A stretch of DNA of 64,000 bases, taken from assembly GCA_019326865.1 (NCBI GenBank), contig GCA_019326865.1_4101.1; one strand, 5' to 3'. Below, piece after piece: positions 2,706 to 28,878 of this stretch; position 1 is the stretch's first letter, and each line of letters opens with the position of its first letter. The DNA comes from a phage. The notes beneath the pieces were generated by a model that had not been told where the DNA came from, made no database searches, and saw only the letters and a program-made list of their open reading frames with translations. The translations under genes and the position numbers were made by a program.

Positions 2706-2843
2706 ATGAATCCTAACGGTATAATTTACAGTACTCCTAAAACTAAAGCAGATAAAGCGGAAGCACGTAAAGCGAAAGTAAAGGAGTACATCAAGCAAGG
2801 TATGACACGAAAGGCGGCGATTCTAAAAGCTAAAAATAAATGA
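2706..2843 (+). CDS. hypothetical basic small protein (45 aa)
   Basis: hand-translated MNPNGIIYSTPKTKADKAEARKAK...; directly follows previous stop. Confidence 0.35.
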   Translation: MNPNGIIYSTPKTKADKAEARKAKVKEYIKQGMTRKAAILKAKNK

Positions 2844-2975
2844 AAAAAAGTGGTTGACTTCGGTCAGCCATTTTGCTATTATATATTCATTGAGAGATAG
2901 CTCACTAGCCCACAGGGTGCGGGAGTGTATCTATTATATAAGTATTGAGTACTGAAAACTATTTTAAAAGTACAT
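2844..2975. repeat. intergenic element R copy 1 (terminator-like hairpin + promoter + conserved core)
   Basis: hairpin TGGTTGAC-TTCG-GTCAGCCA with flanking A/T runs; TTGACT(2854)-17-TATTAT; core CTAGCCCACAGGGTGCGGGAGTGTATC. Confidence 0.75.
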
Positions 2976-2986
2976 GTATAAAGTAC

Positions 2987-3014
2987 TTGCAAACTATCTC
3001 AATTGGCGTATAAT
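2987..3014 (+). promoter_or_regulatory. sigma70-like promoter with 5' leader hairpin
   Basis: TTGCAA-16nt-TATAAT; AGGGGAAA..TTTCCCCT hairpin 3028-3046. Confidence 0.55.
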
Positions 3015-3065
3015 GTTTTACATCGAGAGGGGAAACGGTTTCCCCTAGTAATAAGGAATAAAATC

Positions 3066-3823: not shown

Positions 3824-4003
3824 ATGGCTATCATCGCAAAAACTGAAATCATCGGCCTGGATTCTATCATCATGACGTTTGAAGATCAAAAAGGTATGTA
3901 TGTAGTTTCCTATGGTGATTATGTTCGGGAGTATGAAACGGTAGACGAAGCCTTTGAAAGTTACATTCGCCAGGTGAATAAAGCATACGACGATTACCGC
4001 TAA
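3824..4003 (+). CDS. hypothetical protein (59 aa)
   Basis: hand-translated MAIIAKTEIIGLD...DDYR; same cassette and N-terminal MAII as 870..1082. Confidence 0.5.
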   Translation: MAIIAKTEIIGLDSIIMTFEDQKGMYVVSYGDYVREYETVDEAFESYIRQVNKAYDDYR

Positions 4004-4030
4004 AATATATTACCAGTACTATCAAAGCTA

Positions 4031-4058
4031 TTGACAACGTTTGATAGTACTGTATAAT
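4031..4058 (+). promoter_or_regulatory. sigma70-like promoter
   Basis: TTGACA-16nt-TATAAT. Confidence 0.55.
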
Positions 4059-4104
4059 AAGTTTTATCAACTGTAGTTAACTTAACAAAAGAGAGAGAAA
4101 CAAA

Positions 4105-4248
4105 ATGATCGCACTGGATTCATTCATCGATGCAGTTCTGGCAAAAACTGGCGAGGATCTGACCGCAGAACAATACGCGATGATCGAGCAATGCCAGCAA
4201 GACGGTAAATCGGTGAAAGATACTGTTAAGATTATCCGCAAGATGTAA
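4105..4248 (+). CDS. hypothetical small protein (47 aa)
   Basis: hand-translated MIALDSFIDAVLAKTGEDL...; SD AGAGAGAGAAA; followed by hairpin AGCCCA..TGGGCT. Confidence 0.45.
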   Translation: MIALDSFIDAVLAKTGEDLTAEQYAMIEQCQQDGKSVKDTVKIIRKM

Positions 4249-4354
4249 GATTATAAGCCCATTAGTTAACGCTGGTGGGCTTTAATCATTTACCCTATAC
4301 AATGCCAGTACTAAACCGTTTATCTCGTTAGAATGCATTACAGGACGTTTAACA

Positions 4355-4552
4355 ATGATTAGCATGAAATCAGTACAAAAACAAATAGAAACATTATCAA
4401 AAATTAAACGTAAACAGTACTCATTAGAATATAATATCAATGGTAACTATCATCTAATGAAAGAGAATAATTTTATCGTCATTGATGAATCATTGCAAAT
4501 TATTAGTATAGTACTGAAAGCATTAATTAATGATAGAAAAAGGTTAAAATAA
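4355..4552 (+). CDS. hypothetical protein (65 aa)
   Basis: ORF track; no strong promoter seen. Confidence 0.4.
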   Translation: MISMKSVQKQIETLSKIKRKQYSLEYNINGNYHLMKENNFIVIDESLQIISIVLKALINDRKRLK

Positions 4553-4809
4553 TGGCAGTAGGATTCGCGAAAGATGGAGCCGAGCAAGATGAGATTAACG
4601 CAGTTATTCAAGCCGCCGTTAACCACGCTAGAAAGCAAATTAACGCACAAATAGAATCACTGATACATTGCCTCGACTGCGGCGATAAAATCCCTGAGAA
4701 TCGCCGACAGGCTGTTAAGGGATGTAAGTACTGCATAACCTGCCAGGAAGATCATGATAGTACTTTTAAACGAGATCCGCGTAATTGTTGGCATAGATCT
4801 ATGAGATAA
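4552..4809 (+). CDS. TraR/DksA-type C4 zinc-finger protein
   Basis: CLDCGDKIPENRRQAVKGCKYCITCQ = C-x2-C-x17-C-x2-C typical of TraR/DksA fingers. Confidence 0.55.
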   Translation: MAVGFAKDGAEQDEINAVIQAAVNHARKQINAQIESLIHCLDCGDKIPENRRQAVKGCKYCITCQEDHDSTFKRDPRNCWHRSMR

Positions 4810-4816
4810 AAAGTAA

Positions 4817-4844
4817 TTGACAGTACTGAAAGATAGTGTATAAT
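4817..4844 (+). promoter_or_regulatory. sigma70-like promoter
   Basis: TTGACA-16nt-TATAAT. Confidence 0.55.
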
Positions 4845-4873
4845 GTTTTATATCTTAACTGAGGATAGAAATC

Positions 4874-5230
4874 ATGGGAATACAACATATCACGCTGACC
4901 ACTGACAATGGCGAGATCACTGGTTATCAAGTACAGGGCAAAGTAGCACAATTGCAGTACTGGTTTGTTAAACGTGGAATCATTGCACCGGATCTTGATT
5001 ATGACCGTGTAGCGTTTATTGATTCTCTTTATGTTGATCCTGAAAGTCGGGGCAATGGTGAAGGTAACGAATTAATGAATGCCTTTATTGATGCCGCCGA
5101 TGATTCAGATTGTATCATTTTAGAATGCGATACGGGAGAAGATAACGCCTTCAATCTTAAAGAATGGTATGAAGGTTTCGGATTCGAAGTACTGATCGAT
5201 AGTGAATATCCTATCATGATTTTATCATAG
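4874..5230 (+). CDS. small GNAT-family acetyltransferase-like protein
   Basis: VDPESRGNGEGNELM resembles GNAT motif A (R-G-x-G-x-G); NAFNLKEWYEGFGF resembles motif B. Confidence 0.5.
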   Translation: MGIQHITLTTDNGEITGYQVQGKVAQLQYWFVKRGIIAPDLDYDRVAFIDSLYVDPESRGNGEGNELMNAFIDAADDSDCIILECDTGEDNAFNLKEWYEGFGFEVLIDSEYPIMILS

Positions 5231-5244
5231 TACTAAAAAAGTAA

Positions 5245-5272
5245 TTGACAGTACTATCAGATAGTATATAAT
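5245..5272 (+). promoter_or_regulatory. sigma70-like promoter with 5' leader hairpin
   Basis: TTGACA-16nt-TATAAT; AGGGGAA..TTCCCCT hairpin 5283-5302. Confidence 0.55.
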
Positions 5273-5319
5273 GTTTTACATAGAGGGGAAACATCTTCCC
5301 CTACTAAGAGGAAAGAAAA

Positions 5320-5508
5320 ATGGAAAACTTATCAAGTATTTTAGTACAAGATGATTTTGGTAATCCTGGAAGTGCTATCATTGTTCGGGGTAATAAAGCA
5401 ACGTTTGTTATTGCTGGTGGACCTGTACAGCGTAGCATTAAAAACAATGCTGTTACTATTAATAATGTACGCTATCGCTTAGATAAAGAATTGATTCATA
5501 AACTGTAA
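5320..5508 (+). CDS. hypothetical protein (62 aa)
   Basis: ORF track; SD AAGAGGAAAG. Confidence 0.55.
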   Translation: MENLSSILVQDDFGNPGSAIIVRGNKATFVIAGGPVQRSIKNNAVTINNVRYRLDKELIHKL

Positions 5509-5535
5509 TATTAATTTAATAGAGGATAACAATAA

Positions 5536-5859
5536 ATGTACATTCATACTACTATCACAAAGGAAGTCCGTTGCCAGTTCGAAAGTATTCCGGGCGTATG
5601 TTTCATCACTGGTACGTTTTCCCCTGGTGATCGTGATAATCCAGTACTGTTACAGTTACGCCATCCATTATGGGATAAAGCATTTGATCTACCGTTGAAT
5701 GAATTCGCAACTACTGCTGAAAAGTACATTAAAAATATTCGCGAGAATGATCGACTATTCATTAATGCTTTTAGTGATTCCGCGTTAAGCGAGATCCACG
5801 GCGTATTGGTTGCAATCATGGAATCAATGGAGAAAACTAAATTCAAACAAGGTGAATAA
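5536..5859 (+). CDS. hypothetical protein (107 aa)
   Basis: ORF track; SD AGAGGATAA. Confidence 0.6.
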   Translation: MYIHTTITKEVRCQFESIPGVCFITGTFSPGDRDNPVLLQLRHPLWDKAFDLPLNEFATTAEKYIKNIRENDRLFINAFSDSALSEIHGVLVAIMESMEKTKFKQGE

Positions 5860-5865
5860 AAACTA

Positions 5866-5893
5866 TTGACAATGTAATCTAGTACTGTATAAT
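5866..5893 (+). promoter_or_regulatory. sigma70-like promoter with 5' leader hairpin
   Basis: TTGACA-16nt-TATAAT; GGGGAGAAATGATTCTCCC hairpin. Confidence 0.55.
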
Positions 5894-5943
5894 AAGTTAC
5901 ATGAAGGGGAGAAATGATTCTCCCTACTAAGAGGAAAGAAAAA

Positions 5944-6156
5944 ATGCAAGGTCAACTAATCGTTCGTAAATGGTCTGATACTAATGAAAAACCGTGGGAT
6001 GTACAATACATCGGACCGGATGGGGTATCACGTTATCAGCCTGGCGTAACGCATAGTACTGAGCAATATGCCGCCGCTCATCGTGAACGCCTGTTAGAAT
6101 CTATGCAACAGGGTTTAGGTGAAAAATTCATTCAAGATCATTGGCTGAAAGATTAA
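5944..6156 (+). CDS. hypothetical protein (70 aa)
   Basis: start moved from track 5914 (ATG in hairpin loop) to ATG after SD AAGAGGAAAG. Confidence 0.55.
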   Translation: MQGQLIVRKWSDTNEKPWDVQYIGPDGVSRYQPGVTHSTEQYAAAHRERLLESMQQGLGEKFIQDHWLKD

Positions 6157-6164
6157 AAAGTACT

Positions 6165-6191
6165 TGTGTAGTATAGAAAATAAAGTATAAT
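6165..6191 (+). promoter_or_regulatory. sigma70-like promoter with 5' leader hairpin
   Basis: TTGTGT-15nt-TATAAT; GGAAGGGGAATAGTTCCCCTCC hairpin. Confidence 0.45.
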
Positions 6192-6242
6192 GTTTAATAC
6201 AGGAAGGGGAATAGTTCCCCTCCTAACAAAAAGGAAAGTAAC

Positions 6243-6416
6243 ATGATTCATGTAGAATTGTCAGTACTGAGAGATTTGTTTTATCGGATGGGTACTACTG
6301 GCGAATATCCGAAGGGTGATACTGCAAAACTTTTTGTATCTCTCGACTTATGGCAACGCGAACAATTAGTAATGTCGTGGCGTAAAGGTAAAGCAGATCG
6401 CGAGGTGAAAGCATGA
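6243..6416 (+). CDS. hypothetical protein (57 aa)
   Basis: hand-translated MIHVELSVLRDLFYRMG...; SD AAAGGAAAG. Confidence 0.4.
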   Translation: MIHVELSVLRDLFYRMGTTGEYPKGDTAKLFVSLDLWQREQLVMSWRKGKADREVKA

Positions 6417-6562
6417 AAGAATTTTTATTCGAAGTAGTTTTTATTGGTGTAAGTAGTCACCAATTGATTCGCTCAAGTGGTTACAATGTTTGCCAGGCAT
6501 GGAATAACATTAAACAAATGTACCCGAACGCTATCACATATCGCAACCCAAAACAAGTTTAA
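6413..6562 (+). CDS. hypothetical protein (49 aa)
   Basis: hand-translated MKEFLFEVVFIGVSSHQ...; ATGA-coupled to upstream ORF. Confidence 0.35.
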   Translation: MKEFLFEVVFIGVSSHQLIRSSGYNVCQAWNNIKQMYPNAITYRNPKQV

Positions 6563-6570
6563 AAATAATT

Positions 6571-6705
6571 AAAAAAAGGATTGACTTCGGTCAGTCCTTT
6601 TTGCTATTATATATTCATTGAGAGATAGCTCACTAGCCCACAGGGTGCGGGAGTGTATCTATTATATGTTGGTGGGTGTATTATCTAGTACTGAAAACTA
6701 TTTGA
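6571..6705. repeat. intergenic element R copy 2
   Basis: hairpin GGATTGAC-TTCG-GTCAGTCC; TTGACT(6581)-18-TATTAT; conserved core as in copy 1. Confidence 0.75.
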
Positions 6706-6715
6706 TAAAAAGTAC

Positions 6716-6743
6716 TTGCATTGTACTTAGAATCAAGTATAAT
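6716..6743 (+). promoter_or_regulatory. sigma70-like promoter driving an ORF-less structured leader
   Basis: TTGCAT-16nt-TATAAT; followed by about 80 nt with nested inverted repeats and no ORF before the next promoter. Confidence 0.45.
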
Positions 6744-6833
6744 GTTTTACATCAGGACAGGGAACGAAATAAGTAACTTCCCGTTAAGTAGCCCAGGAGT
6801 AAGGCATACGAAAAACTCCCCTGATAAAATAGT

Positions 6834-6862
6834 TTGACAATAGTTTTAAGTACTGATAAAAT
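6834..6862 (+). promoter_or_regulatory. sigma70-like promoter
   Basis: TTGACA-17nt-TAAAAT; cassette homologous to 269-330. Confidence 0.5.
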
Positions 6863-6894
6863 AATCACATCAACTACTGATAAGGAAACATAAA

Positions 6895-7170
6895 ATGCGG
6901 GTTCTTCTGACAGCTAACGAAATCGAGCAAGTACTTACTACTAACCTGGAACAATGGAAACGTGAAGCAGATATCCAGGCGGTTCAATTGTTAAATGAGA
7001 AGTTAACGCCGGATGATTTAAGTAAGATTGTAGATCCTCAATTCTACGAAGATATTCACGACACCGCGTTAAGCGTCGAGGATGTACTAGATAAACACTA
7101 CATTGATACTAATTTACAGGGTTACGGTCGTAAAAATTTTATTACTATTCACGACATTTACAATAATTAA
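6895..7170 (+). CDS. hypothetical protein (91 aa)
   Basis: ORF track; SD AAGGAAAC. Confidence 0.6.
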   Translation: MRVLLTANEIEQVLTTNLEQWKREADIQAVQLLNEKLTPDDLSKIVDPQFYEDIHDTALSVEDVLDKHYIDTNLQGYGRKNFITIHDIYNN

Positions 7171-7173
7171 GTA

Positions 7174-7201
7174 TTGACAAAGTATCTTAGTACTGTATAA
7201 T
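7174..7201 (+). promoter_or_regulatory. sigma70-like promoter with 5' leader hairpin
   Basis: TTGACA-16nt-TATAAT; GAGGGGAATGGTTCCCCTC hairpin; cassette repeated at 7443. Confidence 0.6.
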
Positions 7202-7256
7202 AGTTTACATCAAGTGAGGGGAATGGTTCCCCTCCTAACAAAGAGAGAAATAAAAA

Positions 7257-7439
7257 ATGGCTAAGTGCACTATCTGTAAGAAAGAAATAGTATTAGTTCC
7301 AAGTGCCCGTGAGCGTGCAGCTCGGTTCGGTGGCAAAGCGTCAGACTATACAAAAATGTTTACTACTCATGCAAATTGCCAGGTAGCAAAACGTTCACAA
7401 GAAAGCGTAGAATTAATGCGTAAACTTTCCAAAAAATAA
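7257..7439 (+). CDS. hypothetical Cys-containing protein (60 aa)
   Basis: ORF track; CTIC...H..C possible zinc ligands. Confidence 0.55.
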   Translation: MAKCTICKKEIVLVPSARERAARFGGKASDYTKMFTTHANCQVAKRSQESVELMRKLSKK

Positions 7440-7442
7440 GTA

Positions 7443-7470
7443 TTGACAAAGTATCTTAGTACTGTATAAT
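7443..7470 (+). promoter_or_regulatory. sigma70-like promoter with 5' leader hairpin
   Basis: TTGACA-16nt-TATAAT; near-identical to 7174 cassette. Confidence 0.6.
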
Positions 7471-7525
7471 AGATTACATCAAGTGAGGGGAAACGGTTCC
7501 CCTCCTAACAAAGAGAGAAATAAAA

Positions 7526-7849
7526 ATGACTATGATCCTTGCCCAGAAAGTAGAACTGAAAATTGTAACTTCCTTTGACATTAAAGTTAATCGCTGGACT
7601 GATCGGAACGGTAATACTTACCACTCTTGCTACGTGTCTGCATTGATTGGTGATCGTTGGGAAGACTTGGGACACGAAACCTTTACATACGGTTACGGTA
7701 CGCAAGGCGAATACACTGGTTTGGAGATCATTAAAGAAACCGTTATAGGTTTCAACCCGAAAGAAAAAGTTATTCACCGCATCGAAAAAGAGATTAATAA
7801 AGAAATAACAGTTCGCTACTACGATGTAAAACGTAAGAAAGACATGTAA
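7526..7849 (+). CDS. hypothetical protein (107 aa), paralog of 1165..1509
   Basis: ORF track; shared YGYG and C-terminal DVKRKKD. Confidence 0.65.
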   Translation: MTMILAQKVELKIVTSFDIKVNRWTDRNGNTYHSCYVSALIGDRWEDLGHETFTYGYGTQGEYTGLEIIKETVIGFNPKEKVIHRIEKEINKEITVRYYDVKRKKDM

Positions 7850-7871
7850 TAGAATCCATTTAAAGTACTAT

Positions 7872-7900
7872 TTGACATTACACAGATAGTACTTTATAAT
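7872..7900 (+). promoter_or_regulatory. sigma70-like promoter
   Basis: TTGACA-17nt-TATAAT. Confidence 0.55.
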
Positions 7901-7935
7901 AGACTCTAACTTGTAGTATTAACTTAACTAATAGG

Positions 7936-8340
7936 ATGTATACCATGATTACTAAATTCTACGCTACCCGTGAAGCTGCCCGTATTGTTGCACGCGAGGA
8001 AGGAGCGGCATTTAAAGACATGGGCAAAGATGCACCGAAAGGCCAACGCTGGAGCGTACAGTTCAAAGAAATCTCTGATATTGTGAATTCACCTGAACCA
8101 GTACTGACAGCAGCAGAACAGAAGAAAGCTGATGAACTGGCGGCAATTCTTAACGCTCAAGATGAATTCGTCGAGGGTGCTGATATCCAGGTTGTAGTAA
8201 ATTCGAATGCATGGACTCACGCGGATCATCTGGCTAACCTGAAGCGTCCAAGCGTATTGATTCGCAACCATAAAGAGATCCGACACGACCGCAAGGGCAA
8301 CCGTGTTACTGTATACAGTAAACGCCGCCAGGTTATCTAA
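7936..8340 (+). CDS. hypothetical protein (134 aa)
   Basis: ORF track; alternative start ATG 7945; followed by terminator. Confidence 0.6.
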   Translation: MYTMITKFYATREAARIVAREEGAAFKDMGKDAPKGQRWSVQFKEISDIVNSPEPVLTAAEQKKADELAAILNAQDEFVEGADIQVVVNSNAWTHADHLANLKRPSVLIRNHKEIRHDRKGNRVTVYSKRRQVI

Positions 8341-8362
8341 TACCTAGCAGTACTAACAACAC

Positions 8363-8388
8363 GGCGGGATCTGTTCCCGCCTTTTTTA
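8363..8388 (+). terminator. rho-independent terminator
   Basis: GGCGGGA-TCTGT-TCCCGCC followed by TTTTTT. Confidence 0.7.
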
Positions 8389-8402
8389 CAGGATAAACTA
8401 AA

Positions 8403-8657
8403 ATGATTAAGGTAAAACTATCTAAAGATAATATCTTGCGGGTACACTATAAAGCCCCTCAGAGAATCATCACAAAGGCCGTACAGCTTGCGAATGAGTT
8501 TATTAATGGTAATCTATTACCTAGGAAGTTAAGCAACGGAAAACTGCGTGTAATCGATGTAGACACTAACAACAGAATAGTAATAGAGAATACCGGAAAG
8601 ATAAACCTATATGAACACCAACAATATAATAAGAAAATAAAACTAATTAGTCGTTGA
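8403..8657 (+). CDS. hypothetical protein (84 aa)
   Basis: ORF track. Confidence 0.55.
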   Translation: MIKVKLSKDNILRVHYKAPQRIITKAVQLANEFINGNLLPRKLSNGKLRVIDVDTNNRIVIENTGKINLYEHQQYNKKIKLISR

Positions 8658-8711
8658 CAGTACTCAAATGTTTTAGTACTATATATCTATACCAACACGG
8701 AGAGAAACAAA

Positions 8712-8930
8712 ATGAAATTATCTAAAATCGAAAAGAAAACTATTGACGTAGCTATCCAACATGGTTACACCTTTCGTAATGATTTACATTTTACCAATTT
8801 TCAACAAGGGTATCGTACTATTAAAAAACTAATTGACAAAGGTTTATTAGTTAAAGTAGACAACGGCAACGGCGTTGAATATCAACCAACACAGGACGCA
8901 TTTAATTTTAAGAAATATAATATTATCTAA
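8712..8930 (+). CDS. hypothetical protein (72 aa), possible winged-helix DNA binder
   Basis: ORF track; promoter TTGACA 8654; IKKLIDKGLLVKVDNGNG wing-like segment (weak). Confidence 0.5.
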   Translation: MKLSKIEKKTIDVAIQHGYTFRNDLHFTNFQQGYRTIKKLIDKGLLVKVDNGNGVEYQPTQDAFNFKKYNII

Positions 8931-8987
8931 TTGACAGTACTCAAATGTTTTAGTACTATATCTATACCAACACAGGAAAAAAACAAA

Positions 8988-9572
8988 ATGCGTAATTATA
9001 CTAAATTCATCCGTACACTGTCAGAAATGGAAACCAACAAAGAGATCTTGACAGCTTGTCGGTTAGCTGGTCTGGAGATCATCGGTGCGGGGTCTTCCCG
9101 TATTGTATTCGCTTTAAATGATCGGTTAGTGATTAAGGTCGCGAATTGTGATGCGGGTGTAGAACAAAATGAAACAGAATGTAAAGTATGGAATTTTTTA
9201 GATTATGACCGACCTCAGTTGAAACAGTTCTTTGCTAAAGTACATATGCATTTAAGCGATCCTGATAATATGTTTATTGTTATGGATCGGTTGAGTACTG
9301 CAAGTAAAGGCAGTGTAAAGCACGTTAACGCGTGCAACGAATTAAAGTACAATATTAAACGTAATGCAATCGAACGCCAGCACCGCTTTGCTGATGCACT
9401 ACAACACGTCGATGATACATTATCAACACTAACGATCAGAGATATCAGAAAACAGAATATCGGACAGGATCGAAATGGACTGATTAAAGTACTTGATTAT
9501 GGTTTAACCCGCAATATCTGGAATCAGTACTATAAAAAGCGTGATGTAAAAGCCGTAACTATAACACGATAA
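8988..9572 (+). CDS. compact protein-kinase-like protein (194 aa)
   Basis: start moved from track TTG 8931; Gly-loop IGAGSSRIVF, VIKV lysine, catalytic-loop-like RDIRKQN, DFG-like LDYG. Confidence 0.5.
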   Translation: MRNYTKFIRTLSEMETNKEILTACRLAGLEIIGAGSSRIVFALNDRLVIKVANCDAGVEQNETECKVWNFLDYDRPQLKQFFAKVHMHLSDPDNMFIVMDRLSTASKGSVKHVNACNELKYNIKRNAIERQHRFADALQHVDDTLSTLTIRDIRKQNIGQDRNGLIKVLDYGLTRNIWNQYYKKRDVKAVTITR

Positions 9573-9580
9573 AAAAGATT

Positions 9581-9705
9581 AAAAAAGGGATTGACTCCGG
9601 TCAGTCCCTTTGCTATTATATATTCATTGAGAGATAGCTCACTAGCCCACAGGGTGCGGGAGTGTATCTATTATATAAGTATTGAGTACTGAAAACTATT
9701 TTTAA
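9581..9705. repeat. intergenic element R copy 3
   Basis: hairpin GGGATTGAC-TCCG-GTCAGTCCC; TTGACT(9591)-17-TATTAT; conserved core. Confidence 0.75.
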
Positions 9706-9713
9706 AAAGTACT

Positions 9714-9740
9714 TGCATTGTACTTAGATTCAAGTATAAT
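9714..9740 (+). promoter_or_regulatory. sigma70-like promoter with 5' leader hairpin
   Basis: TTGCAT-15nt-TATAAT; imperfect GGGGGAACGTCCC hairpin; SD AAGGAAT. Confidence 0.55.
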
Positions 9741-9787
9741 GTTTTATATCGAGAGGGGGAACGTCCCTGATAATAAGGAATAAAATC

Positions 9788-10009
9788 ATGACTACAATGA
9801 CTTGCATTTACGCTTCCAATCTTCTGAATGATGCTGTTTTTAATGTTGATTCAGAATATCAATGTTATCGGGATGAAAATAAAAAAGTTTTTGTAGTTGA
9901 TAATAATGGTTTCCATATTGAATTACAATCCGGCTTCACTGGTGTTGATGGTAAATCAGTATGGGGCGTACAGGATGATAAAGGCACATATCATTTTAAA
10001 CGTAATTAA
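9788..10009 (+). CDS. hypothetical protein (73 aa)
   Basis: ORF track; SD AAGGAAT. Confidence 0.6.
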   Translation: MTTMTCIYASNLLNDAVFNVDSEYQCYRDENKKVFVVDNNGFHIELQSGFTGVDGKSVWGVQDDKGTYHFKRN

Positions 10010-10012
10010 GTA

Positions 10013-10040
10013 TTGACAAAGTATCTTAGTACTGTATAAT
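10013..10040 (+). promoter_or_regulatory. sigma70-like promoter with double leader hairpin
   Basis: TTGACA-16nt-TATAAT; same double hairpin as at 3460-3510. Confidence 0.6.
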
Positions 10041-10124
10041 AGTTTACATCAAGGGCAACGGGAAGTTTTAAAAACTTCCCTATAGGGAGAACAGTTCTCC
10101 CCGATACTAAAAGGAAACAAAAAT

Positions 10125-10397
10125 ATGTCTAGCTACTCCGCTACTATGATCATTAAAGATATGAACGGTAATCCTACTGCTGCTGGTGGATCATTTGGAA
10201 ACATTAACTTAGATGGTCGGTTAACCATGCAATCAGCCATCAATGCAGCGAAAGAAGTTTTTAAGAATGAATGCACTGTAAGTAAGCTGGATTATATGGG
10301 ATTCGCTATCGAGAAAACTAATCGTTTTGTGAACTACAAAAATCCACTGATGATTGATACTAACCTGAAAGCTAACGAAGTGGAATACTTATTATGA
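10125..10397 (+). CDS. hypothetical protein (90 aa)
   Basis: ORF track; SD AAAGGAAAC. Confidence 0.6.
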   Translation: MSSYSATMIIKDMNGNPTAAGGSFGNINLDGRLTMQSAINAAKEVFKNECTVSKLDYMGFAIEKTNRFVNYKNPLMIDTNLKANEVEYLL

Positions 10398-10585
10398 CAG
10401 TTGAAGAAGTTAAAAAAGTACTGGCAGTTCTACGCTATCATAACCATTGCAAGGTGAAGAATGATTCTGATTATCTTGATTCATCCCTTGAGGAAGACAC
10501 ATTAAACGCAATAAGCTATATGCAAACATTATTAAAACGTATGACCGAAAAGAATAGACCGGACTATATCGGAAATAAAATTTAA
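10394..10585 (+). CDS. hypothetical protein (63 aa)
   Basis: ORF track; ATGA-coupled. Confidence 0.5.
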   Translation: MTVEEVKKVLAVLRYHNHCKVKNDSDYLDSSLEEDTLNAISYMQTLLKRMTEKNRPDYIGNKI

Positions 10586-10593
10586 AAAGTACT

Positions 10594-10620
10594 TGCATTG
10601 TAGTTAGATTAACGTATAAT
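10594..10620 (+). promoter_or_regulatory. sigma70-like promoter with 5' leader hairpin
   Basis: TTGCAT-15nt-TATAAT; GAGGGGAAATGGTTTCCCCTC hairpin. Confidence 0.55.
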
Positions 10621-10671
10621 GTTTTATATCGAGAGGGGAAATGGTTTCCCCTCAAGTCCAGGAGATACACA

Positions 10672-10935
10672 ATGAACACTATCGAAATCACTATCAATGC
10701 TCACGTATACGACAACGTAGTACTGCAAACTACTATGACCGCTAATGATACCAGTACTTTGCGGAATACTGTTATTAGTGCTGTATGTGCCGCTATCGGT
10801 GATGTCGCCCTGGAAAATGCAAAACACGTAAACGATGGTTTCACTATGTGCAAGCGTGATAACGCAAAACATATCATCGTAGAAGGTTACGGCGGTGTAG
10901 AATATAATGTTTATATGAAAAAAGTACTTGCATAA
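10672..10935 (+). CDS. hypothetical protein (87 aa)
   Basis: ORF track; SD CAGGAGA; 3' end overlaps next promoter. Confidence 0.6.
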   Translation: MNTIEITINAHVYDNVVLQTTMTANDTSTLRNTVISAVCAAIGDVALENAKHVNDGFTMCKRDNAKHIIVEGYGGVEYNVYMKKVLA

Positions 10936-10955
10936 TAACTAAAACAAAGTATAAT
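10928..10955 (+). promoter_or_regulatory. sigma70-like promoter with 5' leader hairpin
   Basis: TTGCAT-16nt-TATAAT; GGGGGAGATATCCTCCCCC hairpin. Confidence 0.55.
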
Positions 10956-11002
10956 GTTTTGCATAGGGGGAGATATCCTCCCCCACTAAAAGGAGTAATA
11001 AA

Positions 11003-11227
11003 ATGGCTAACTTTGATGAACTGATGCGGGAAGTAGCTAACCTGGCAGAAGAGAAGAAATCATTCGATTCTATCTATAACACCTCTTACCGTGATTCAGT
11101 ACTGGCATGTAACCAGGATCAAAAAGATGAACTAATCGCCACCTATTATGAAGCATGGAAGTACTACCGACAATGGGAGAAAGAAGAAAGTGAGTCTACC
11201 ATTGACGGCCTCAATAATCTAATCTAA
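11003..11227 (+). CDS. hypothetical protein (74 aa)
   Basis: ORF track; SD AAAGGAG. Confidence 0.6.
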   Translation: MANFDELMREVANLAEEKKSFDSIYNTSYRDSVLACNQDQKDELIATYYEAWKYYRQWEKEESESTIDGLNNLI

Positions 11228-11245
11228 AGTTTTATTTCAGTACTA

Positions 11246-11274
11246 TTGACATAGATTGATAGTACTGATATGAT
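11246..11274 (+). promoter_or_regulatory. sigma70-like promoter
   Basis: TTGACA-17nt-TATGAT; partial copy of the 790 cassette. Confidence 0.45.
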
Positions 11275-11302
11275 AACTTTACTATCTACAAGGGGAAACA
11301 TC

Positions 11303-11560
11303 ATGGAACAATTCACACAATATCGGGTAAATCCTCAAGCTATGGCATACGTAGAAGACCATAAAACGTTACCAGTACAAACACCAATTAAAGGCCATAT
11401 CTATCGTGCAATGTCATGGAATCCGGCCCAGTATGGCTATAACACCGTAGCCGTGGGCATGTACTGCGGCAATGGTGAATGGTTTGATCCTAACAATCCG
11501 ATTGCACTTGATAGTACTGAAAAAATGAAATGGGCCGACTACATCGAAGATATTTCATAA
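11303..11560 (+). CDS. hypothetical protein (85 aa)
   Basis: start moved from track 11270 (ATG inside -10 region) to ATG after SD AAGGGGAAA. Confidence 0.55.
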   Translation: MEQFTQYRVNPQAMAYVEDHKTLPVQTPIKGHIYRAMSWNPAQYGYNTVAVGMYCGNGEWFDPNNPIALDSTEKMKWADYIEDIS

Positions 11561-11567
11561 AAATTAT

Positions 11568-11595
11568 TTGACAGTACTAACCAGTAATGTATAAT
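11568..11595 (+). promoter_or_regulatory. sigma70-like promoter with 5' leader hairpin
   Basis: TTGACA-16nt-TATAAT; GCGGGGGAATAGTTCTCCCGC hairpin. Confidence 0.55.
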
Positions 11596-11650
11596 GTTTT
11601 ACATAGAGCGGGGGAATAGTTCTCCCGCCAATAGTTTGGAGTAAAACATT

Positions 11651-11851
11651 ATGTCTATCGCTATCGCCCTGGTCGAAGTACTGAAAGAAGCTAAAGCCAA
11701 CCTTATCGATGTACAGATTAAGGAATTGCAAAATGGCTTAATCGGCTGTACTTGTACCGCTGGTGGCCCGTCAGACTATCGGGAATTCGAATCACTTGAA
11801 TCGATGGTCCGTTATCTTACAATCATCGTAGAAGATTGGAGAATCATCTAA
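11651..11851 (+). CDS. hypothetical protein (66 aa)
   Basis: ORF track; SD TTTGGAG. Confidence 0.55.
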   Translation: MSIAIALVEVLKEAKANLIDVQIKELQNGLIGCTCTAGGPSDYREFESLESMVRYLTIIVEDWRII

Positions 11852-11865
11852 CAAAAAAAAAGAAT

Positions 11866-12005
11866 AAAAAGGGATTGACTCCGGTCAGTCCCTTTGCTAT
11901 TATATACGCATAGACAAAAACTAGCCCACAGGGTGCATAGGTGTATCTTAAATATATAGTTAATAACGGTGAGTAACTATCTGCTGGTGGGGTGAAAACT
12001 ATTAA
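11866..12005. repeat. intergenic element R copy 4 (diverged)
   Basis: same hairpin and TTGACT(11875)-17-TATTAT; central part diverged, keeps CTAGCCCACAGGGTGC. Confidence 0.7.
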
Positions 12006-13418: not shown

Positions 13419-13646
13419 ATGATTGATAATAATTTTAAGGGAGTCCCTGTGCGTATTTTAACTCAAGCAGAACACCACGAAAGACTTATCAATAACATGG
13501 CTATGATAATGTATAAGTCCCATGACCGTGGTATTGCCTATAAGCGTGAATTAGTACTGGAACTATTCATTGGAACTAACTTTCAGGAAAGGTATGTCAA
13601 CGATTGGATTTGGTATTTAATTGAAGATATAACGAGTAAACTATGA
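13419..13646 (+). CDS. family A paralog (LGTNYQ motif), hypothetical
   Basis: famA motif IGTNFQERYV; start may be GTG 13446 after SD AGGGAG. Confidence 0.6.
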   Translation: MIDNNFKGVPVRILTQAEHHERLINNMAMIMYKSHDRGIAYKRELVLELFIGTNFQERYVNDWIWYLIEDITSKL

Positions 13647-13837
13647 TCATTTTAAATAAAGAAGAATATCAAGAACTGTTACGTAAAAACTTTGTAAAGA
13701 TTTATAATACAGACACACACGTAGAACGAATGGAGTTATACCTTTTGATTACATTGGGAACTAACTATCAGGAAAGATGGGTGATTCAATATATGGATAC
13801 ATTGAAAAATAAAATATTGTCCACGAGGAAACAATGA
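13643..13837 (+). CDS. family A paralog, hypothetical
   Basis: famA LGTNYQERWV; ATGA-coupled. Confidence 0.6.
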   Translation: MIILNKEEYQELLRKNFVKIYNTDTHVERMELYLLITLGTNYQERWVIQYMDTLKNKILSTRKQ

Positions 13838-14043
13838 AAACTATAACACGAACCCAATCATTCGGACTTATCTTGAAATACATGGACTTAATGGTGGATA
13901 TCAGCAAAGACCTGCCTAAAACTGCAATTGAAGTTGCAAGAGCAGAGATCCGCATGTTGGCTGTACTGAACACAAACCATCAGGAAGAGTATGTTGACGA
14001 TTGGATTCGATTTTTAATAGAAGATATTAAGAGTAAACTATGA
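13834..14043 (+). CDS. family A paralog, hypothetical
   Basis: famA LNTNHQEEYV; ATGA-coupled. Confidence 0.6.
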   Translation: MKTITRTQSFGLILKYMDLMVDISKDLPKTAIEVARAEIRMLAVLNTNHQEEYVDDWIRFLIEDIKSKL

Positions 14044-14252
14044 TTATATTAACACCTGAAGAATATAAGAAACGTTTTAATTCTGTCCAGACTGAAATAT
14101 TACTTATATACCTTTCAAATGCAGATCTTAACTTATCAAGGGTAATGGAGAAGGATTTACTTATGGGTGCATTTTTGGATACAGACTTTCAGGAGTATTA
14201 TGTAGGGGAATACTTTATTGCACTTCAGAACCACATTAAGAGTAAACTATGA
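14040..14252 (+). CDS. family A paralog, hypothetical
   Basis: famA LDTDFQEYYV; ATGA-coupled. Confidence 0.6.
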   Translation: MIILTPEEYKKRFNSVQTEILLIYLSNADLNLSRVMEKDLLMGAFLDTDFQEYYVGEYFIALQNHIKSKL

Positions 14253-14464
14253 TTATTCTAGAAAAATCATATCAATATACTGAACGCATCGCTGCCAGAC
14301 AACTTGAAATCCTCATAATATACGAAGAGACTTCTGATTTAAACTTAGCCGAGGTATTGGAAAATGAAATACTTTTGGGTGCATTCTTGGGAACAGACTA
14401 TCAGGAGTATTATGAGGAAAAGTATTTGTCATCTCTTGAGAAATACGTCAGGAGCAAACTATGA
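14249..14464 (+). CDS. family A paralog, hypothetical
   Basis: famA LGTDYQEYYE; ATGA-coupled. Confidence 0.6.
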   Translation: MIILEKSYQYTERIAARQLEILIIYEETSDLNLAEVLENEILLGAFLGTDYQEYYEEKYLSSLEKYVRSKL

Positions 14465-14688
14465 AACATTTAAGTAATATAGAGAAGAATAAAATTATCA
14501 TTGCTGTAATAAACAAATATTTTACACTTCCACAAAAAGAATGTTTATCTATAAGGGAACACAGGATAAACACCACCGAGATTCGCATGTTGGCTGTACT
14601 GGGGACTAACTTCCAAGAAGGCTATGTTCATGAGCACATCGTTGCACTCACTAATTACATAATGGACAAATGCAATGAACATCATTAA
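14461..14688 (+). CDS. family A paralog, hypothetical
   Basis: famA LGTNFQEGYV. Confidence 0.6.
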   Translation: MKHLSNIEKNKIIIAVINKYFTLPQKECLSIREHRINTTEIRMLAVLGTNFQEGYVHEHIVALTNYIMDKCNEHH

Positions 14689-14899
14689 TAACTTTGAATA
14701 CGAGGCCCGTGTTAAGAGTGCCAGAAAAAAAGAGAACACCATTTACTTCACTATGATGTACTTACAATGGACTGAAATTGAAGAAAAGGTTGCTGAAGTA
14801 TGGATGTTGGAATTCATGGGGACGCAGTATCAGAATAGGTTTGCGGGTGAGTATATCAATGTTCTTATGAAACAAATAGAAAGGAAGGAAAAGAACTAA
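14675..14899 (+). CDS. family A paralog, hypothetical
   Basis: famA MGTQYQNRFA. Confidence 0.55.
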   Translation: MNIINNFEYEARVKSARKKENTIYFTMMYLQWTEIEEKVAEVWMLEFMGTQYQNRFAGEYINVLMKQIERKEKN

Positions 14900-14988
14900 T
14901 GGAGGGATGCTGTACTTTATTGGAACTTTTATATATTCATGAACACATAGTTGCCCTCACAAATCTAATAAAGGATAAATGTAAATGA
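14899..14988 (+). pseudogene. truncated family A remnant (29 codons)
   Basis: encodes MEGCCTLLELLYIHEHIVALTNLIKDKCK, matching only the C-terminal end of 14461..14688. Confidence 0.45.
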
Positions 14989-15242
14989 AACACTTGACTG
15001 ATGATGAACATGAAACTATAATTCGTAAACTAACCCCCATCACAAGGATAGTCTACGGTGATCCCAGCCTCACATGGAACCAAATGCGAGCTAAAGTTAA
15101 TGAGCTATGGTTGCTGTACTTTATGGGGACTCAATATCAAGATAAGTTTTGCACAGAATATATCGAACAATTAACGAATGTTATACAGGATAAACTAAAT
15201 GAACGAATTGTGGAAAAATATGAAAACTTTATCAAGCATTGA
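14985..15242 (+). CDS. family A paralog, hypothetical
   Basis: famA MGTQYQDKFC; N-terminus MKHLTDDEH shared with 17780. Confidence 0.6.
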   Translation: MKHLTDDEHETIIRKLTPITRIVYGDPSLTWNQMRAKVNELWLLYFMGTQYQDKFCTEYIEQLTNVIQDKLNERIVEKYENFIKH

Positions 15243-15471
15243 GTATCAGACTGCCCTCTTCTCTCTTCTAAACACCCTCCGCACGAACAATAAACTTTAT
15301 AATTCACGTGAAGCTGATATTGTCAACGCTGATGTATATCTTAATAAATTTATAGGGACTAACTATCAAGAACTGTTTGTTTTACGATATATCTCTGCAC
15401 TAAGAAACGAAATATCAGATAAAACCCGCCAAGCCAGAAGAGAATGGAAGAGACAATGCAACAAAGACTAA
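15199..15471 (+). CDS. family A paralog, hypothetical
   Basis: famA IGTNYQELFV; start may be ATG 15220. Confidence 0.55.
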   Translation: MNELWKNMKTLSSIEYQTALFSLLNTLRTNNKLYNSREADIVNADVYLNKFIGTNYQELFVLRYISALRNEISDKTRQARREWKRQCNKD

Positions 15472-15707
15472 ATCACAAAATGTATTGTAAACTATTACAG
15501 AATCTAGGACAAAAACACTATGATACAGTATCTGAAATATTACCCTATGATATCATGCGTTTAATTCATAGTGAGGCAGAGATGCTTGTACTGATGACCG
15601 GTACTGATAAAACAGCAATCACCAGATCGATAGAGCAATATATTGATGCACACTGTCAATGTATTAGAACTGAGATATGGAGGCGAGTAAATGAAAGTAC
15701 TGAATGA
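15444..15707 (+). CDS. family A-like divergent paralog, hypothetical
   Basis: position in array; degenerate motif MTGTDKTAI. Confidence 0.5.
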   Translation: MEETMQQRLNHKMYCKLLQNLGQKHYDTVSEILPYDIMRLIHSEAEMLVLMTGTDKTAITRSIEQYIDAHCQCIRTEIWRRVNESTE

Positions 15708-15906
15708 GTATCAGTATCATTGGAGGTTACAAACTATAAGAGGGAAAGTTGTTAGTATTTCTTTAGACAAGTCTATTGCACAAGAGGACAAATGTGTTAT
15801 AATAGCTGAAATGAAGTTGGGTGTATTTGTAGGAACAAACTATCAAAACATCTACACTGACGTATTATTAAGTGCCTTACGCAACAAGGTGTTATCCAGA
15901 GAATGA
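15691..15906 (+). CDS. family A paralog, hypothetical
   Basis: famA VGTNYQNIYT. Confidence 0.6.
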   Translation: MKVLNEYQYHWRLQTIRGKVVSISLDKSIAQEDKCVIIAEMKLGVFVGTNYQNIYTDVLLSALRNKVLSRE

Positions 15907-16121
15907 GAAAATTAATAGGTTACGAATATGTTAAGCTTCTGAAAACCTGTAGTATTAGCAGGGTAAAGATTCAATCTGATAAGAGTATTCCTGTTGAACT
16001 AAAGTACGCAATGATGGCTGAACTTTATGTAGGTGCACTATTGGGGACAAACTATCAACAAATGTATGTAGACCTATGGGTTGACGCTCTACTGAAAGAG
16101 GTCCAAAGTAAATGCAAATGA
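15903..16121 (+). CDS. family A paralog, hypothetical
   Basis: famA LGTNYQQMYV; ATGA-coupled. Confidence 0.6.
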   Translation: MRKLIGYEYVKLLKTCSISRVKIQSDKSIPVELKYAMMAELYVGALLGTNYQQMYVDLWVDALLKEVQSKCK

Positions 16122-16333
16122 TTCATTTATCTTACTATGAATATCAAAAACGTTTAAATGCATCAAGGGATATAAGGATTAAAATCTACAATAACAAAAG
16201 ATTGAAATCTGAAGCCAAAAAAATCAAAATGATAGAAGCTGAATTATGCAACTTCCTTGGGACGAACTATCAGGATGATAAGGTAACAAACTATCTTAGA
16301 GAACTAATGATTAGTATCAAGAGTAAATGTTAG
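16112..16333 (+). CDS. family A paralog, hypothetical
   Basis: famA LGTNYQDDKV. Confidence 0.6.
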   Translation: MQMIHLSYYEYQKRLNASRDIRIKIYNNKRLKSEAKKIKMIEAELCNFLGTNYQDDKVTNYLRELMISIKSKC

Positions 16334-16337
16334 GCAG

Positions 16338-16595
16338 ATGTACATGAAAATGATTAAATTATCTCAAGCAAAATATAAAGAACGCCTGGAAAAAATTACA
16401 CCTAGACTTAATGAAATCCATCACGGAGAAGTCATTAAACACGGAAATAAGATGATTATGAAACTTGAGTTAAAGGTGGGTGCATTCATAGGAACAAACT
16501 ATCAGGAGTATTATGTAGATGAATACATAATCGCACTTAAGAGATACATTGGAAGAAAACTATATCTACAAACTAAAGAATTGTATTGCAAATAA
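16338..16595 (+). CDS. family A paralog, hypothetical
   Basis: famA IGTNYQEYYV. Confidence 0.6.
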   Translation: MYMKMIKLSQAKYKERLEKITPRLNEIHHGEVIKHGNKMIMKLELKVGAFIGTNYQEYYVDEYIIALKRYIGRKLYLQTKELYCK

Positions 16596-16876
16596 ATGCA
16601 AGGATAATGAATATGAAAATGATCAATTTAAGTAAAGATGAATATACCGAGCGTATGACAAAAATTACGCACAAACGTAATACAATCTATCACAACCCAG
16701 AAATTCAACACAGTAAGAAAATGATTATGATGCGTGAGTTAAAGATGGGTGTATTCTTGGGAACAAACTATCAAGATACAGAAGTAAATCGCTTAATCGC
16801 GGAGTTACTACTGGAAATCAGAGGTAAGCTGTACTTTCATCAAATGACCCAACCACTGAGGTGTACTAAGAAATGA
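16586..16876 (+). CDS. family A paralog, hypothetical
   Basis: famA LGTNYQDTEV. Confidence 0.6.
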   Translation: MQINARIMNMKMINLSKDEYTERMTKITHKRNTIYHNPEIQHSKKMIMMRELKMGVFLGTNYQDTEVNRLIAELLLEIRGKLYFHQMTQPLRCTKK

Positions 16877-17088
16877 TCAACATCACATTGCAAGAAAGAT
16901 TCATCCGAATCAACTATGCAATTACCAAATTAGATGCTACTATAGGATTCCAAAGTCTACCGTTCCAAACAAGAATGATATTAGAGTGCGAAGCTAAATT
17001 GGGTGTACTGTTAGGAACGCAACACCAACAACGATATGTGGAAATCTGGATTGATCTTTTAACCCAAAATGTACATGAGAAAATGTAA
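16873..17088 (+). CDS. family A paralog, hypothetical
   Basis: famA LGTQHQQRYV; ATGA-coupled. Confidence 0.6.
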   Translation: MINITLQERFIRINYAITKLDATIGFQSLPFQTRMILECEAKLGVLLGTQHQQRYVEIWIDLLTQNVHEKM

Positions 17089-19625: not shown

Positions 19626-19637
19626 GAGTACTGATAT

Positions 19638-19853: not shown

Positions 19854-19859
19854 CAGTAC

Positions 19860-19888
19860 TTGACGGAGCTTTTCATTACTGATATAGT
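19860..19888 (+). promoter_or_regulatory. sigma70-like promoter
   Basis: TTGACG-17nt-TATAGT upstream of 19918. Confidence 0.45.
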
Positions 19889-19917
19889 ATACTAACGTTA
19901 ATCATAGGGTAGAAATT

Positions 19918-28877: not shown

Positions 28878-28878
28878 A

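What the first reader, a model, noticed from the sequence alone, without database searches (positions are those of the whole stretch)
8988..9572. Compact protein-kinase-like ORF in the early module
The 194-aa product has, in the correct order, a Gly-rich loop (IGAGSSRIVF), a VAIK-like lysine (VIKV), a catalytic-loop-like RDIRKQN, and a DFG-like LDYG. Phage early kinases that phosphorylate host proteins are known (T7 gp0.7), but this is much smaller and not obviously related.
Basis: partly seen in the sequence, partly recalled or inferred. Interest (0 to 1): 0.6.

Follow-up and report, generated by a model that had tools for sequence, protein, structure and literature searches.

The report
Compact early kinase of a jumbo coliphage
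The 194-residue ORF is a real, conserved gene of an Asteriusvirus (PBECO4/121Q-like) jumbo phage that encodes a stripped-down protein-kinase fold with every catalytic residue intact; public records already call its orthologues "putative protein kinase", but nobody has tested what it phosphorylates.

Summary

The kinase reading is supported:
- A 27-sequence family profile hits only protein kinases in the PDB (200 hits; best MKK4, E 2e-6).
- K50, E64, D170 and G172 are invariant in 125 homologous domains.

It is not a canonical eukaryotic-type kinase. The chain ends 22 residues after the DYG motif, so the activation segment and helices F-I are missing, and it scores below Pfam's Pkinase threshold.

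It belongs to PHROG 4301 ("unknown function"). That family is distinct from the T7 kinase family, which these phages also encode in a separate gene.

The gene sits in the ~21-kb direct terminal repeat, behind a sigma-70-like promoter, and is under strong purifying selection (dN/dS ~0.09).

Most likely it is an immediate-early ATP-dependent protein kinase used for host takeover or anti-defence. No substrate is known.

Novelty is limited. GenBank, UniProt and a 2025 paper already label orthologues as kinases.

The parts
8931..8959 (+). Sigma-70-like promoter (TTGACA, 17 nt spacer, TACTAT; 10 of 12 matches), 29 nt upstream of the start codon
   Evidence: and my own regex scan. This is a consensus match only; I have no transcription data.
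8974..8977 (+). Shine-Dalgarno-like AGGA, 10 nt before the ATG
   Evidence: Read directly from the sequence.
8988..9572 (+). CDS of 194 aa (22.5 kDa, pI 9.4): minimal protein-kinase-fold protein, PHROG 4301
   Evidence: ORF and sequence. PHROG 4301 match, E 1.9e-42. dN/dS 0.09. AlphaFold2 model with pLDDT 92.7 and pTM 0.89.
9081..9110 (+). Gly-rich loop IGAGSSRIVF (residues 32-41), the turn between strands 1 and 2. The family signature is GxGSSRxV, with invariant R38 where the third Gly would be.
9135..9137 (+). K50, the strand-3 (VAIK-type) lysine
   Evidence: Invariant in 125 of 125 homologous domains.
9177..9179 (+). E64, the alpha-C glutamate, within the family motif G57-x-x-Q60-N61-x-x-E64
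   Evidence: Invariant in 125 of 125 domains. The model places helix 55-73 here.
9438..9458 (+). Catalytic loop RDIRKQN (residues 151-157), with D152 and N157
   Evidence: Aligned with HRDIKPSN of MKK4. Asp occupies this column in 77 of 125 domains and the adjacent column in 38 more; part of this may be an alignment shift, not resolved here. N157 varies in the wider family (N, H, S or Q).
9495..9503 (+). DYG (residues 170-172), the equivalent of the Mg-binding DFG motif
   Evidence: D170 and G172 are invariant in 125 of 125 domains. The chain ends 22 residues later.
9584..9611 (.). 12-bp-stem hairpin just after the stop codon. It contains the -35 hexamer (TTGACT) of the next promoter. Copies lie at 6573 and 11868.
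   Evidence: No T-run follows, so it is not a canonical intrinsic terminator; its role is unknown.

Best explanation
The gene encodes a stand-alone, minimal protein-kinase-fold phosphotransferase of an Asteriusvirus jumbo phage.

Shown:
- The protein has two N-terminal helices, a five-stranded N-lobe with helix C, helices D and E, the catalytic loop and the Mg-binding DYG, followed by one short C-terminal helix.
- It has the Lys-Glu pair, the catalytic Asp/Asn and the Mg-binding Asp needed to bind ATP and transfer its gamma-phosphate.
- The activation segment and helices F-I of canonical kinases are absent.

Inferred:
- The gene lies in the direct terminal repeat, so it is present at both genome ends and is on whichever end enters the cell first.
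- It is read by host RNA polymerase from its own sigma-70-type promoter, so the enzyme is made in the first minutes of infection.
- It then phosphorylates host proteins, and possibly phage proteins, on Ser/Thr to help takeover or blunt defence systems. This is analogous to the compact T7 kinase core, which is experimentally a hyper-promiscuous protein kinase.
- It may act alongside the separate T7K-like kinase that these phages also carry.

My layered confidence:
- Kinase fold and ATP binding: ~0.95
- Catalytically active phosphotransferase: ~0.8
- Substrates are proteins and the role is early takeover or anti-defence: ~0.55
For: Sequence:
- Pfam Pkinase and PK_Tyr_Ser-Thr are the only meaningful Pfam hits.
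- PDB searches return only protein kinases: single sequence, best E 0.012; 9-sequence profile, E 6e-4; 27-sequence profile, E 2e-6 with 200 kinase hits.

Structure:
- AlphaFold2 model with pLDDT 92.7 and pTM 0.89.
- Foldseek gives probability 1.0 to Lpg2603, MEK1, OSR1 and others.

Conservation:
- K50, E64, D170 and G172 are invariant in 125 of 125 domains.
- dN/dS is 0.09.

The ~190-aa unit is an autonomous domain. It recurs as 4 tandem copies in one protein and twice inside a tape-measure protein.

Timing:
- Location in the terminal repeat, and two copies per record in phages whose records include both repeats.
- The gene's own promoter, plus 30 strong sigma-70-like sites on the + strand against 1 on the - strand, 16 of them between 4 and 12 kb.

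Precedent:
- T7K is a validated promiscuous kinase that disarms defences (PMC13645617).
- Its core, and that of Sharanji gp144, likewise ends ~20-30 residues after the Mg-binding Asp.

Independent annotation:
- HHpred 99.9% to a kinase chain (6J5T_M) for the Muenster homologue.
- A kinase label for the 147-aa PBECO4 UniProt entry in BFVD.
Against: - No experiment exists for any member of PHROG 4301. I found none in the literature searches.
- The protein lacks every element that canonical kinases use to bind peptide substrates: the activation segment with its P+1 loop, and helices F and G.
- The Lys two residues after the catalytic Asp (HRDxK), typical of Ser/Thr kinases, is not conserved in the family.
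- TM-scores to solved kinases are modest (0.40-0.48 of the query).
- Early expression is inferred from promoter consensus and genome position, not measured.
- The same phages already carry a T7K-like kinase, so a redundant role is not obviously needed.
Confidence: 0.55

Rival explanations
1. It is an active kinase, but its substrate is not a protein. It could be a small molecule (antibiotic-like compound, sugar, nucleotide or signalling molecule) or a nucleic acid, as with aminoglycoside phosphotransferases or the compact archaeal RNA kinase ArkI.
For: - The peptide-binding elements of protein kinases are absent.
- The family keeps only the generic D-x4-N pattern, not HRDxKxxN.
- The protein is basic (pI 9.4).
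Against: - All sequence-level hits are protein kinases. No APH, choline-kinase or other small-molecule kinase family appears in Pfam or in the 200 PDB profile hits.
- The C-terminal helical substrate-binding subdomain of APH-type enzymes is also absent.
- T7K shows that an equally truncated core can phosphorylate proteins.
Confidence: 0.2
2. It binds ATP but works mainly as an ATPase or conformational switch, or as a pseudokinase scaffold that needs a partner. This would resemble other truncated kinase-like proteins such as RIO and Bud32 (comparison from my own knowledge).
For: - There is no activation segment or helix F-I substrate platform.
- N157 is replaced by H, S or Q in much of the wider family.
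Against: - Lys, Glu and both Asp residues are strictly conserved across 125 domains. That is unusual for scaffolding pseudokinases.
- RIO proteins rank no higher than ordinary protein kinases.
Confidence: 0.15
3. The motifs are a chance resemblance, and the protein is neither kinase-like nor ATP-binding.
For: - The Pfam score (18.6 bits) is below the gathering cut-off of 31.7.
- PHROG 4301 is labelled 'unknown function'.
Against: - Profile E 2e-6, with only kinases hit and all motifs in register.
- A confident model with a kinase-like fold.
- Catalytic residues invariant over 125 homologous domains.
- Independent HHpred 99.9% in the Muenster record.
Confidence: 0.02

Closest known systems
Phage T7 protein kinase gp0.7 (T7K; Pfam PF27024, PHROG 2828/15752), including the stand-alone T7K-like kinase of the same jumbo phages (Sharanji gp144, WNN14432.1)
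   Same: - It is an early phage gene.
- It has a compact kinase core: N-terminal helices, Gly-loop, VIKV lysine and a D-x4-N catalytic loop, with the Mg-binding Asp 13 residues further on.
- The core ends ~20-30 residues after that Asp, with no canonical C-lobe.
- All motifs align in register over 140 columns.
   Different: - Statistical support for a specific relationship is weak: hhalign probability 20%, E 1e-3.
- It matches no PF27024 or PHROG 2828 model.
- It has DYG instead of DPV/DPL.
- It has the family-specific GSSR and G-x-x-QN-x-x-E motifs.
- It has no shut-off (DNA-binding) domain.
- It is a separate gene: the T7K-like gene lies ~46 kb away in Sharanji and is not in this window.
Canonical eukaryotic-type Ser/Thr protein kinases (Pfam PF00069), e.g. 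MKK4/MKK7, PknB
   Same: - These are the best sequence and profile matches.
   Different: - Only Pkinase profile positions 26-152 of 263 have a counterpart.
- There is no activation segment or APE motif, and no helices F-I.
- The score is below Pfam's threshold.
- The third Gly of the loop is an invariant Arg.
- The D+2 Lys is not conserved.
PHROG 4301 (phage protein family, 'unknown function'), including RaK2, K64-1, Muenster, Munch, Kaldavass and EJP2 homologues (the BFVD fold search also finds similar small proteins in Pectobacterium phage CBB, at 22-24% identity)
   Same: The window protein is a full-length member (E 1.9e-42). All distant relatives I tested also map to this PHROG.
   Different: Nothing differs. 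This is the family it belongs to, and the family has no assigned function and no Pfam model.
YrbL (Pfam PF10707), a ~210-aa kinase-like protein of enterobacteria
   Same: It has a similar small size. One tandem-domain relative (P0033) touches PF10707 just below threshold (29.4 against 31.5 bits).
   Different: The window protein does not match PF10707. hhalign of the family profile against E. coli YrbL found nothing, but that is a weak test because the target was a single sequence.

Membership tests
Protein-kinase-like fold superfamily | Two-lobed fold: a five-stranded N-lobe sheet with helix C, then helix E, the catalytic loop and a Mg-binding loop | tested here: met
Protein-kinase-like fold superfamily | ATP-binding Lys (strand 3) paired with the helix-C Glu | tested here: met
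   K50 and E64 are invariant in 125 of 125 homologous domains.
Protein-kinase-like fold superfamily | Catalytic Asp and Asn (D-x4-N), with the Mg-binding Asp 13 residues later | tested here: met
   D152, N157 and D170. D170 is invariant. Asp occupies the D152 column in 77 of 125 domains and the adjacent column in 38 more. N157 is variable in the wider family.
Canonical eukaryotic-type protein kinase (Pfam PF00069) | Score above Pfam's gathering threshold | tested here: not met
   18.6 bits against a cut-off of 31.7. Only 4 of 27 family members hit Pkinase at E <= 0.01; the one relative tabulated individually (P0016) scored 26.2 bits, also below the cut-off.
Canonical eukaryotic-type protein kinase (Pfam PF00069) | Activation segment ending in APE, helix F (DxWxxG) and helices G-I | tested here: not met
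   The chain ends 22 residues after G172. The model has a single short helix (175-182) after DYG. Pkinase profile positions 153-263 are unmatched.
Canonical eukaryotic-type protein kinase (Pfam PF00069) | HRDxKxxN catalytic loop, with Lys at D+2 for Ser/Thr kinases | tested here: not met
   D+2 is R154 here, and R, K, S, H, N or T in relatives.
T7 kinase family (PF27024; PHROG 2828/15752) | Match to the family models | tested here: not met
   No PF27024 hit at E <= 10. No PHROG 2828 or 15752 hit at E <= 1. As a positive control, Sharanji gp144 hits both PHROGs.
T7 kinase family (PF27024; PHROG 2828/15752) | DPV (or DP) motif in place of DFG | tested here: not met
   This protein has DYG. The middle residue is Y in 93 and F in 16 of 125 domains. 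The motif definition comes from PMC13645617.
T7 kinase family (PF27024; PHROG 2828/15752) | Profile-profile homology to T7K | tested here: inconclusive
   hhalign probability 19.8%, E 1.2e-3, 140 columns with all motifs in register. The T7K alignment I used is shallow (Neff about 2).
PHROG 4301 | Full-length match to the family profile | tested here: met
   E 1.9e-42, residues 2-188.
YrbL (PF10707) | Match to the family model | tested here: not met
   No hit. hhalign against E. coli YrbL gave probability 0.6%.
Aminoglycoside/choline-type small-molecule kinases (APH) | C-terminal helical substrate-binding subdomain, and a sequence match to APH-type models | tested here: not met
Any kinase family | Demonstrated phosphotransfer activity and an identified substrate | not testable with these tools
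   This needs biochemistry or phosphoproteomics.

The most novel reading that the evidence does not exclude
PHROG 4301 is a second, independent lineage of minimal phage kinases.
- It is a ~190-residue autonomous catalytic unit lacking the whole substrate-binding half of the kinase C-lobe.
- Phages deploy it at the very first moment of infection in several ways: from terminal-repeat DNA, as tandem arrays of up to four copies, or fused into the ejected tape-measure protein.
- Its targets differ from those of T7K, which would explain why Asteriusvirus phages keep both enzymes.
Probability: 0.35. Interest if true: 0.6.

Novelty: new member of a known kind. Interest (0 to 1): 0.4.

Why it matters
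Phage kinases have recently become important. T7K was shown in 2024-2026 to disarm many bacterial defence systems by mass phosphorylation (PMC13645617).

This gene represents a different and untested kinase family:
- It has 136 clusters at E <= 1e-10 and 1,780 at E <= 1e-3 in a 1.84-billion-protein library.
- It has an equally stripped-down catalytic core.
- It coexists with a T7K-like kinase in the same jumbo phages.

If it is active, it would show that the kinase fold can work without helices F-I in more than one lineage. It would also give a second handle on how large phages take over cells.

For genome annotation, the practical point is modest: the gene should be called "putative protein kinase (minimal, PHROG 4301)" rather than "hypothetical protein".

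Tried and rejected
- **Shallow alignment for structure prediction.** The first AlphaFold2 run, with a 9-sequence alignment, gave a poor C-terminal half (pLDDT 36-50). I repeated it with 27 sequences.
- **Broader family profile.** A 66-sequence profile (A3) was less sensitive against the PDB than the 27-sequence one (one hit, E 9e-5). It was not used further.
- **Single-sequence hhalign targets.** Runs against single T7K and YrbL sequences were uninformative. The T7K homologue search returned only close relatives (>= 69% identity), so the T7K profile stayed shallow.
- **AFDB fold library.** It was not available.
- **Supplementary tables.** Those of the T7K paper are not held. I identified the jumbo-phage T7K homologue through the Sharanji record instead.
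- **Defence and naming libraries.** PADLOC gave only generic kinase cross-hits to PD-T4-6, and NCBIfam gave nothing useful.
- **Second copy in the window.** I found no second copy of the domain and no T7K-like gene.
- **Literature.** Four searches found no experiment on this family. The phAPEC6 virion-proteome paper does not mention this protein in its main text.
- **Rejected: the 213-aa ORF from TTG 8931.** That TTG lies in the promoter -35 hexamer.

Full report
**1. The observation**

The window is about 92% identical at the DNA level to Asteriusvirus jumbo coliphages (G17, Sharanji, PBECO4, phAPEC6 and others).

The mechanical ORF list extends the frame to a TTG at 8931. That TTG is the start of a TTGACA -35 hexamer, and every orthologue begins at MRNY, so the ATG at 8988 is the start. 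An AGGA lies 10 nt upstream.

The gene is under strong purifying selection. Against fEgEco12 there are 40 nucleotide but only 8 amino-acid differences (35 and 7 against Sharanji), and dN/dS is 0.09 against each. tblastn finds it in 54 phage records: Escherichia, Klebsiella, Salmonella, Erwinia and Xanthomonas jumbo phages.

**2. Is it kinase-like?**

Sequence evidence:
- Pfam gives only sub-threshold hits: Pkinase at 18.6 bits against a cut-off of 31.7, and PK_Tyr_Ser-Thr.
- Every one of the 60 PDB matches listed for the single sequence (96 at E <= 10) is a protein kinase. The catalytic loop and DFG region align residue for residue with MKK4 and PKC.
- A 9-sequence profile gives E 6e-4.
- A 27-sequence profile gives E 2e-6 to MKK4, with 200 hits at E <= 0.01; all 60 listed are protein kinases.

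Structure evidence:
- AlphaFold2 with the 27-sequence alignment gives pLDDT 92.7 and pTM 0.89.
- The order of elements is: two N-terminal helices, three strands, a long helix (55-73), further N-lobe strands, helices 109-120 and 129-145, two short strands, then one helix (175-182).
- Foldseek agrees.

Conservation evidence:
- Across 125 homologous domains, K50, E64, D170 and G172 are invariant.
- R38, G57 and Q60 are each conserved in 124 of 125.
- An Asp occupies the D152 column or the adjacent one in about 115 of 125.

The kinase fold and a complete catalytic apparatus are therefore well supported.

**3. What it is not**

The chain stops 22 residues after the DYG glycine. Pkinase profile positions 153-263 have no counterpart. 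Those positions cover the activation segment with APE, helix F and helices G-I.

The Lys two residues after the catalytic Asp is not conserved, and the third Gly of the loop is an invariant Arg. It is therefore an atypical, minimal kinase rather than a canonical eukaryotic-type kinase.

The ~190-residue unit is a self-sufficient domain. In metagenomic relatives it occurs in three other arrangements:
- four tandem copies in a single 923-aa protein (P0021);
- four adjacent ~270-aa paralogous genes next to tail-sheath genes;
- two copies inside a 3,248-aa tape-measure protein (PF10145).

Each repeat includes the N-terminal helices, so those helices are part of the domain.

**4. Family placement**

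The protein is a full-length member of PHROG 4301, labelled "unknown function" (E 1.9e-42). All distant relatives I tested map there too. There is no Pfam family for it. A scan of 1.84 billion cluster representatives finds 1,780 clusters at E <= 1e-3 and 136 at E <= 1e-10, mostly 160-280 aa long.

It is distinct from the T7 kinase family:
- It matches no PF27024 or PHROG 2828 model.
- It has DYG rather than DPV.
- hhalign against a T7K alignment reaches only 20% probability (E 1.2e-3), although the Gly-loop, VIKV lysine, D-x4-N loop and Mg-binding Asp all align in register over 140 columns.

The same phages encode a true T7K-like kinase in another gene, Sharanji gp144 (224 aa, "ITDPLS"). It reaches hhalign probability 96.7% to T7K and matches PHROG 15752/2828. 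That gene is not in this window.

T7K's core, and gp144, also end about 20-30 residues after the Mg-binding Asp. T7K is a proven, extremely promiscuous protein kinase (PMC13645617). A kinase core truncated in this way can therefore be fully active on proteins.

**5. Context and timing**

By alignment to fEgEco12, window position 1 corresponds to about 6.6 kb into the left direct terminal repeat. fEgEco12's termini and 20,993-bp repeat were confirmed by restriction digests (PMC13070987). The repeat would end near window position 13.3 kb, and the kinase gene (g044 in fEgEco12) lies inside it.

Muenster and Sharanji also place it in a ~20-kb repeat. Records that include both repeats show two copies.

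The gene has its own promoter-like site, TTGACA-17-TACTAT at 8931-8959. Strong sigma-70-type sites number 30 on the + strand against 1 on the - strand, and 16 of them lie between 4 and 12 kb.

This fits host-polymerase, immediate-early expression from the first DNA to enter the cell. It remains an inference, because I found no transcriptome data.

**6. Mechanism**

My best reading is an ATP-dependent phosphotransferase made at the start of infection that phosphorylates host proteins for takeover or counter-defence, by analogy with T7K (confidence 0.55).

The rivals are:
- a small-molecule or nucleic-acid kinase (0.2). It is favoured by the APH and ArkI structural matches and by the lack of peptide-binding elements. 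It is disfavoured because all sequence-level hits are protein kinases.
- an ATPase switch or partner-dependent pseudokinase (0.15);
- chance resemblance (0.02).

**7. Novelty**

The kinase assignment is already public:
- Muenster gp043: "putative protein kinase, HHpred 6J5T_M 99.9%".
- K64-1, Munch, SE_PL and fENko-Kae01: "(putative) protein kinase".
- fEgEco12 g044 and Turkey5: "serine/threonine-protein kinase".
- UniProt L7TKF0 of PBECO4: "Protein kinase domain-containing protein".
- The Sharanji paper: WNN14351.1, the direct orthologue, is "another protein kinase, which function is unknown" (PMC11895373).

What is not known is its activity, its substrates, and why these phages carry two different compact kinases. 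I rate the finding as a correct but already-annotated prediction, with moderate follow-up value.

Noticed in passing
window 13419-20909 (plus 32478-32669): A tandem array of 29 paralogous small genes (~70-85 aa each, PHROG 4148, unknown function), packed head to tail on the + strand. The array starts almost exactly where the ~21-kb terminal repeat would end, at about 13.3 kb.
   Followed up: partly
window 28395-30701, 35944-36447, 37163-37645: A second paralogous family of 7 ORFs of ~150-165 aa (PHROG 9317, unknown function).
   Followed up: partly
window 6573-6602, 9584-9611, 11868-11895; longer copies at 2831-3037, 6552-6764, 9570-9763, 11855-11958: A repeated intergenic element. A 12-13-bp-stem hairpin (AAAGGGATTGACTCCGGTCAGTCCCTTT) carries a -35 hexamer (TTGACT) inside its stem and is followed by a TATTAT -10. 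No T-run follows, so it is not a standard terminator. It might couple transcript-end structure with re-initiation.
   Followed up: partly
window 1-64000, mainly 4000-12000: Strong sigma-70-type promoter matches are extremely strand-biased (30 on +, 1 on -). They cluster in the terminal-repeat part of the window, often as perfect TTGACA-N16/17-TATAAT sites in front of single small genes.
   Followed up: partly
L006:2318-12064 (Logan SRR32481264 contig, protein P0083): A 3,248-aa phage tape-measure protein (PF10145) carries two internal copies of the same minimal kinase domain (about residues 666-834 and 856-1036). This suggests that some phages inject the kinase as part of a virion protein.
   Followed up: partly
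L007:204-2975 (P0021); L011:883-4166 (four adjacent genes): The minimal kinase domain also occurs as 4 tandem copies in one 923-aa protein. Elsewhere it occurs as four consecutive ~270-aa paralogous genes immediately upstream of phage tail-sheath genes on a 54-kb contig.
   Followed up: partly
L008:28183-28857 (Sharanji gp144, WNN14432.1; not in the window): Asteriusvirus phages carry a second, unrelated compact kinase of the T7K family (224 aa, DPL motif). It is annotated 'hypothetical protein' in the GenBank record.
   Followed up: yes
window 8712-8930: The 72-aa ORF directly upstream of the kinase gene has no PHROG match at E <= 0.001. It has its own promoter-like site at 8654-8682.
   Followed up: no
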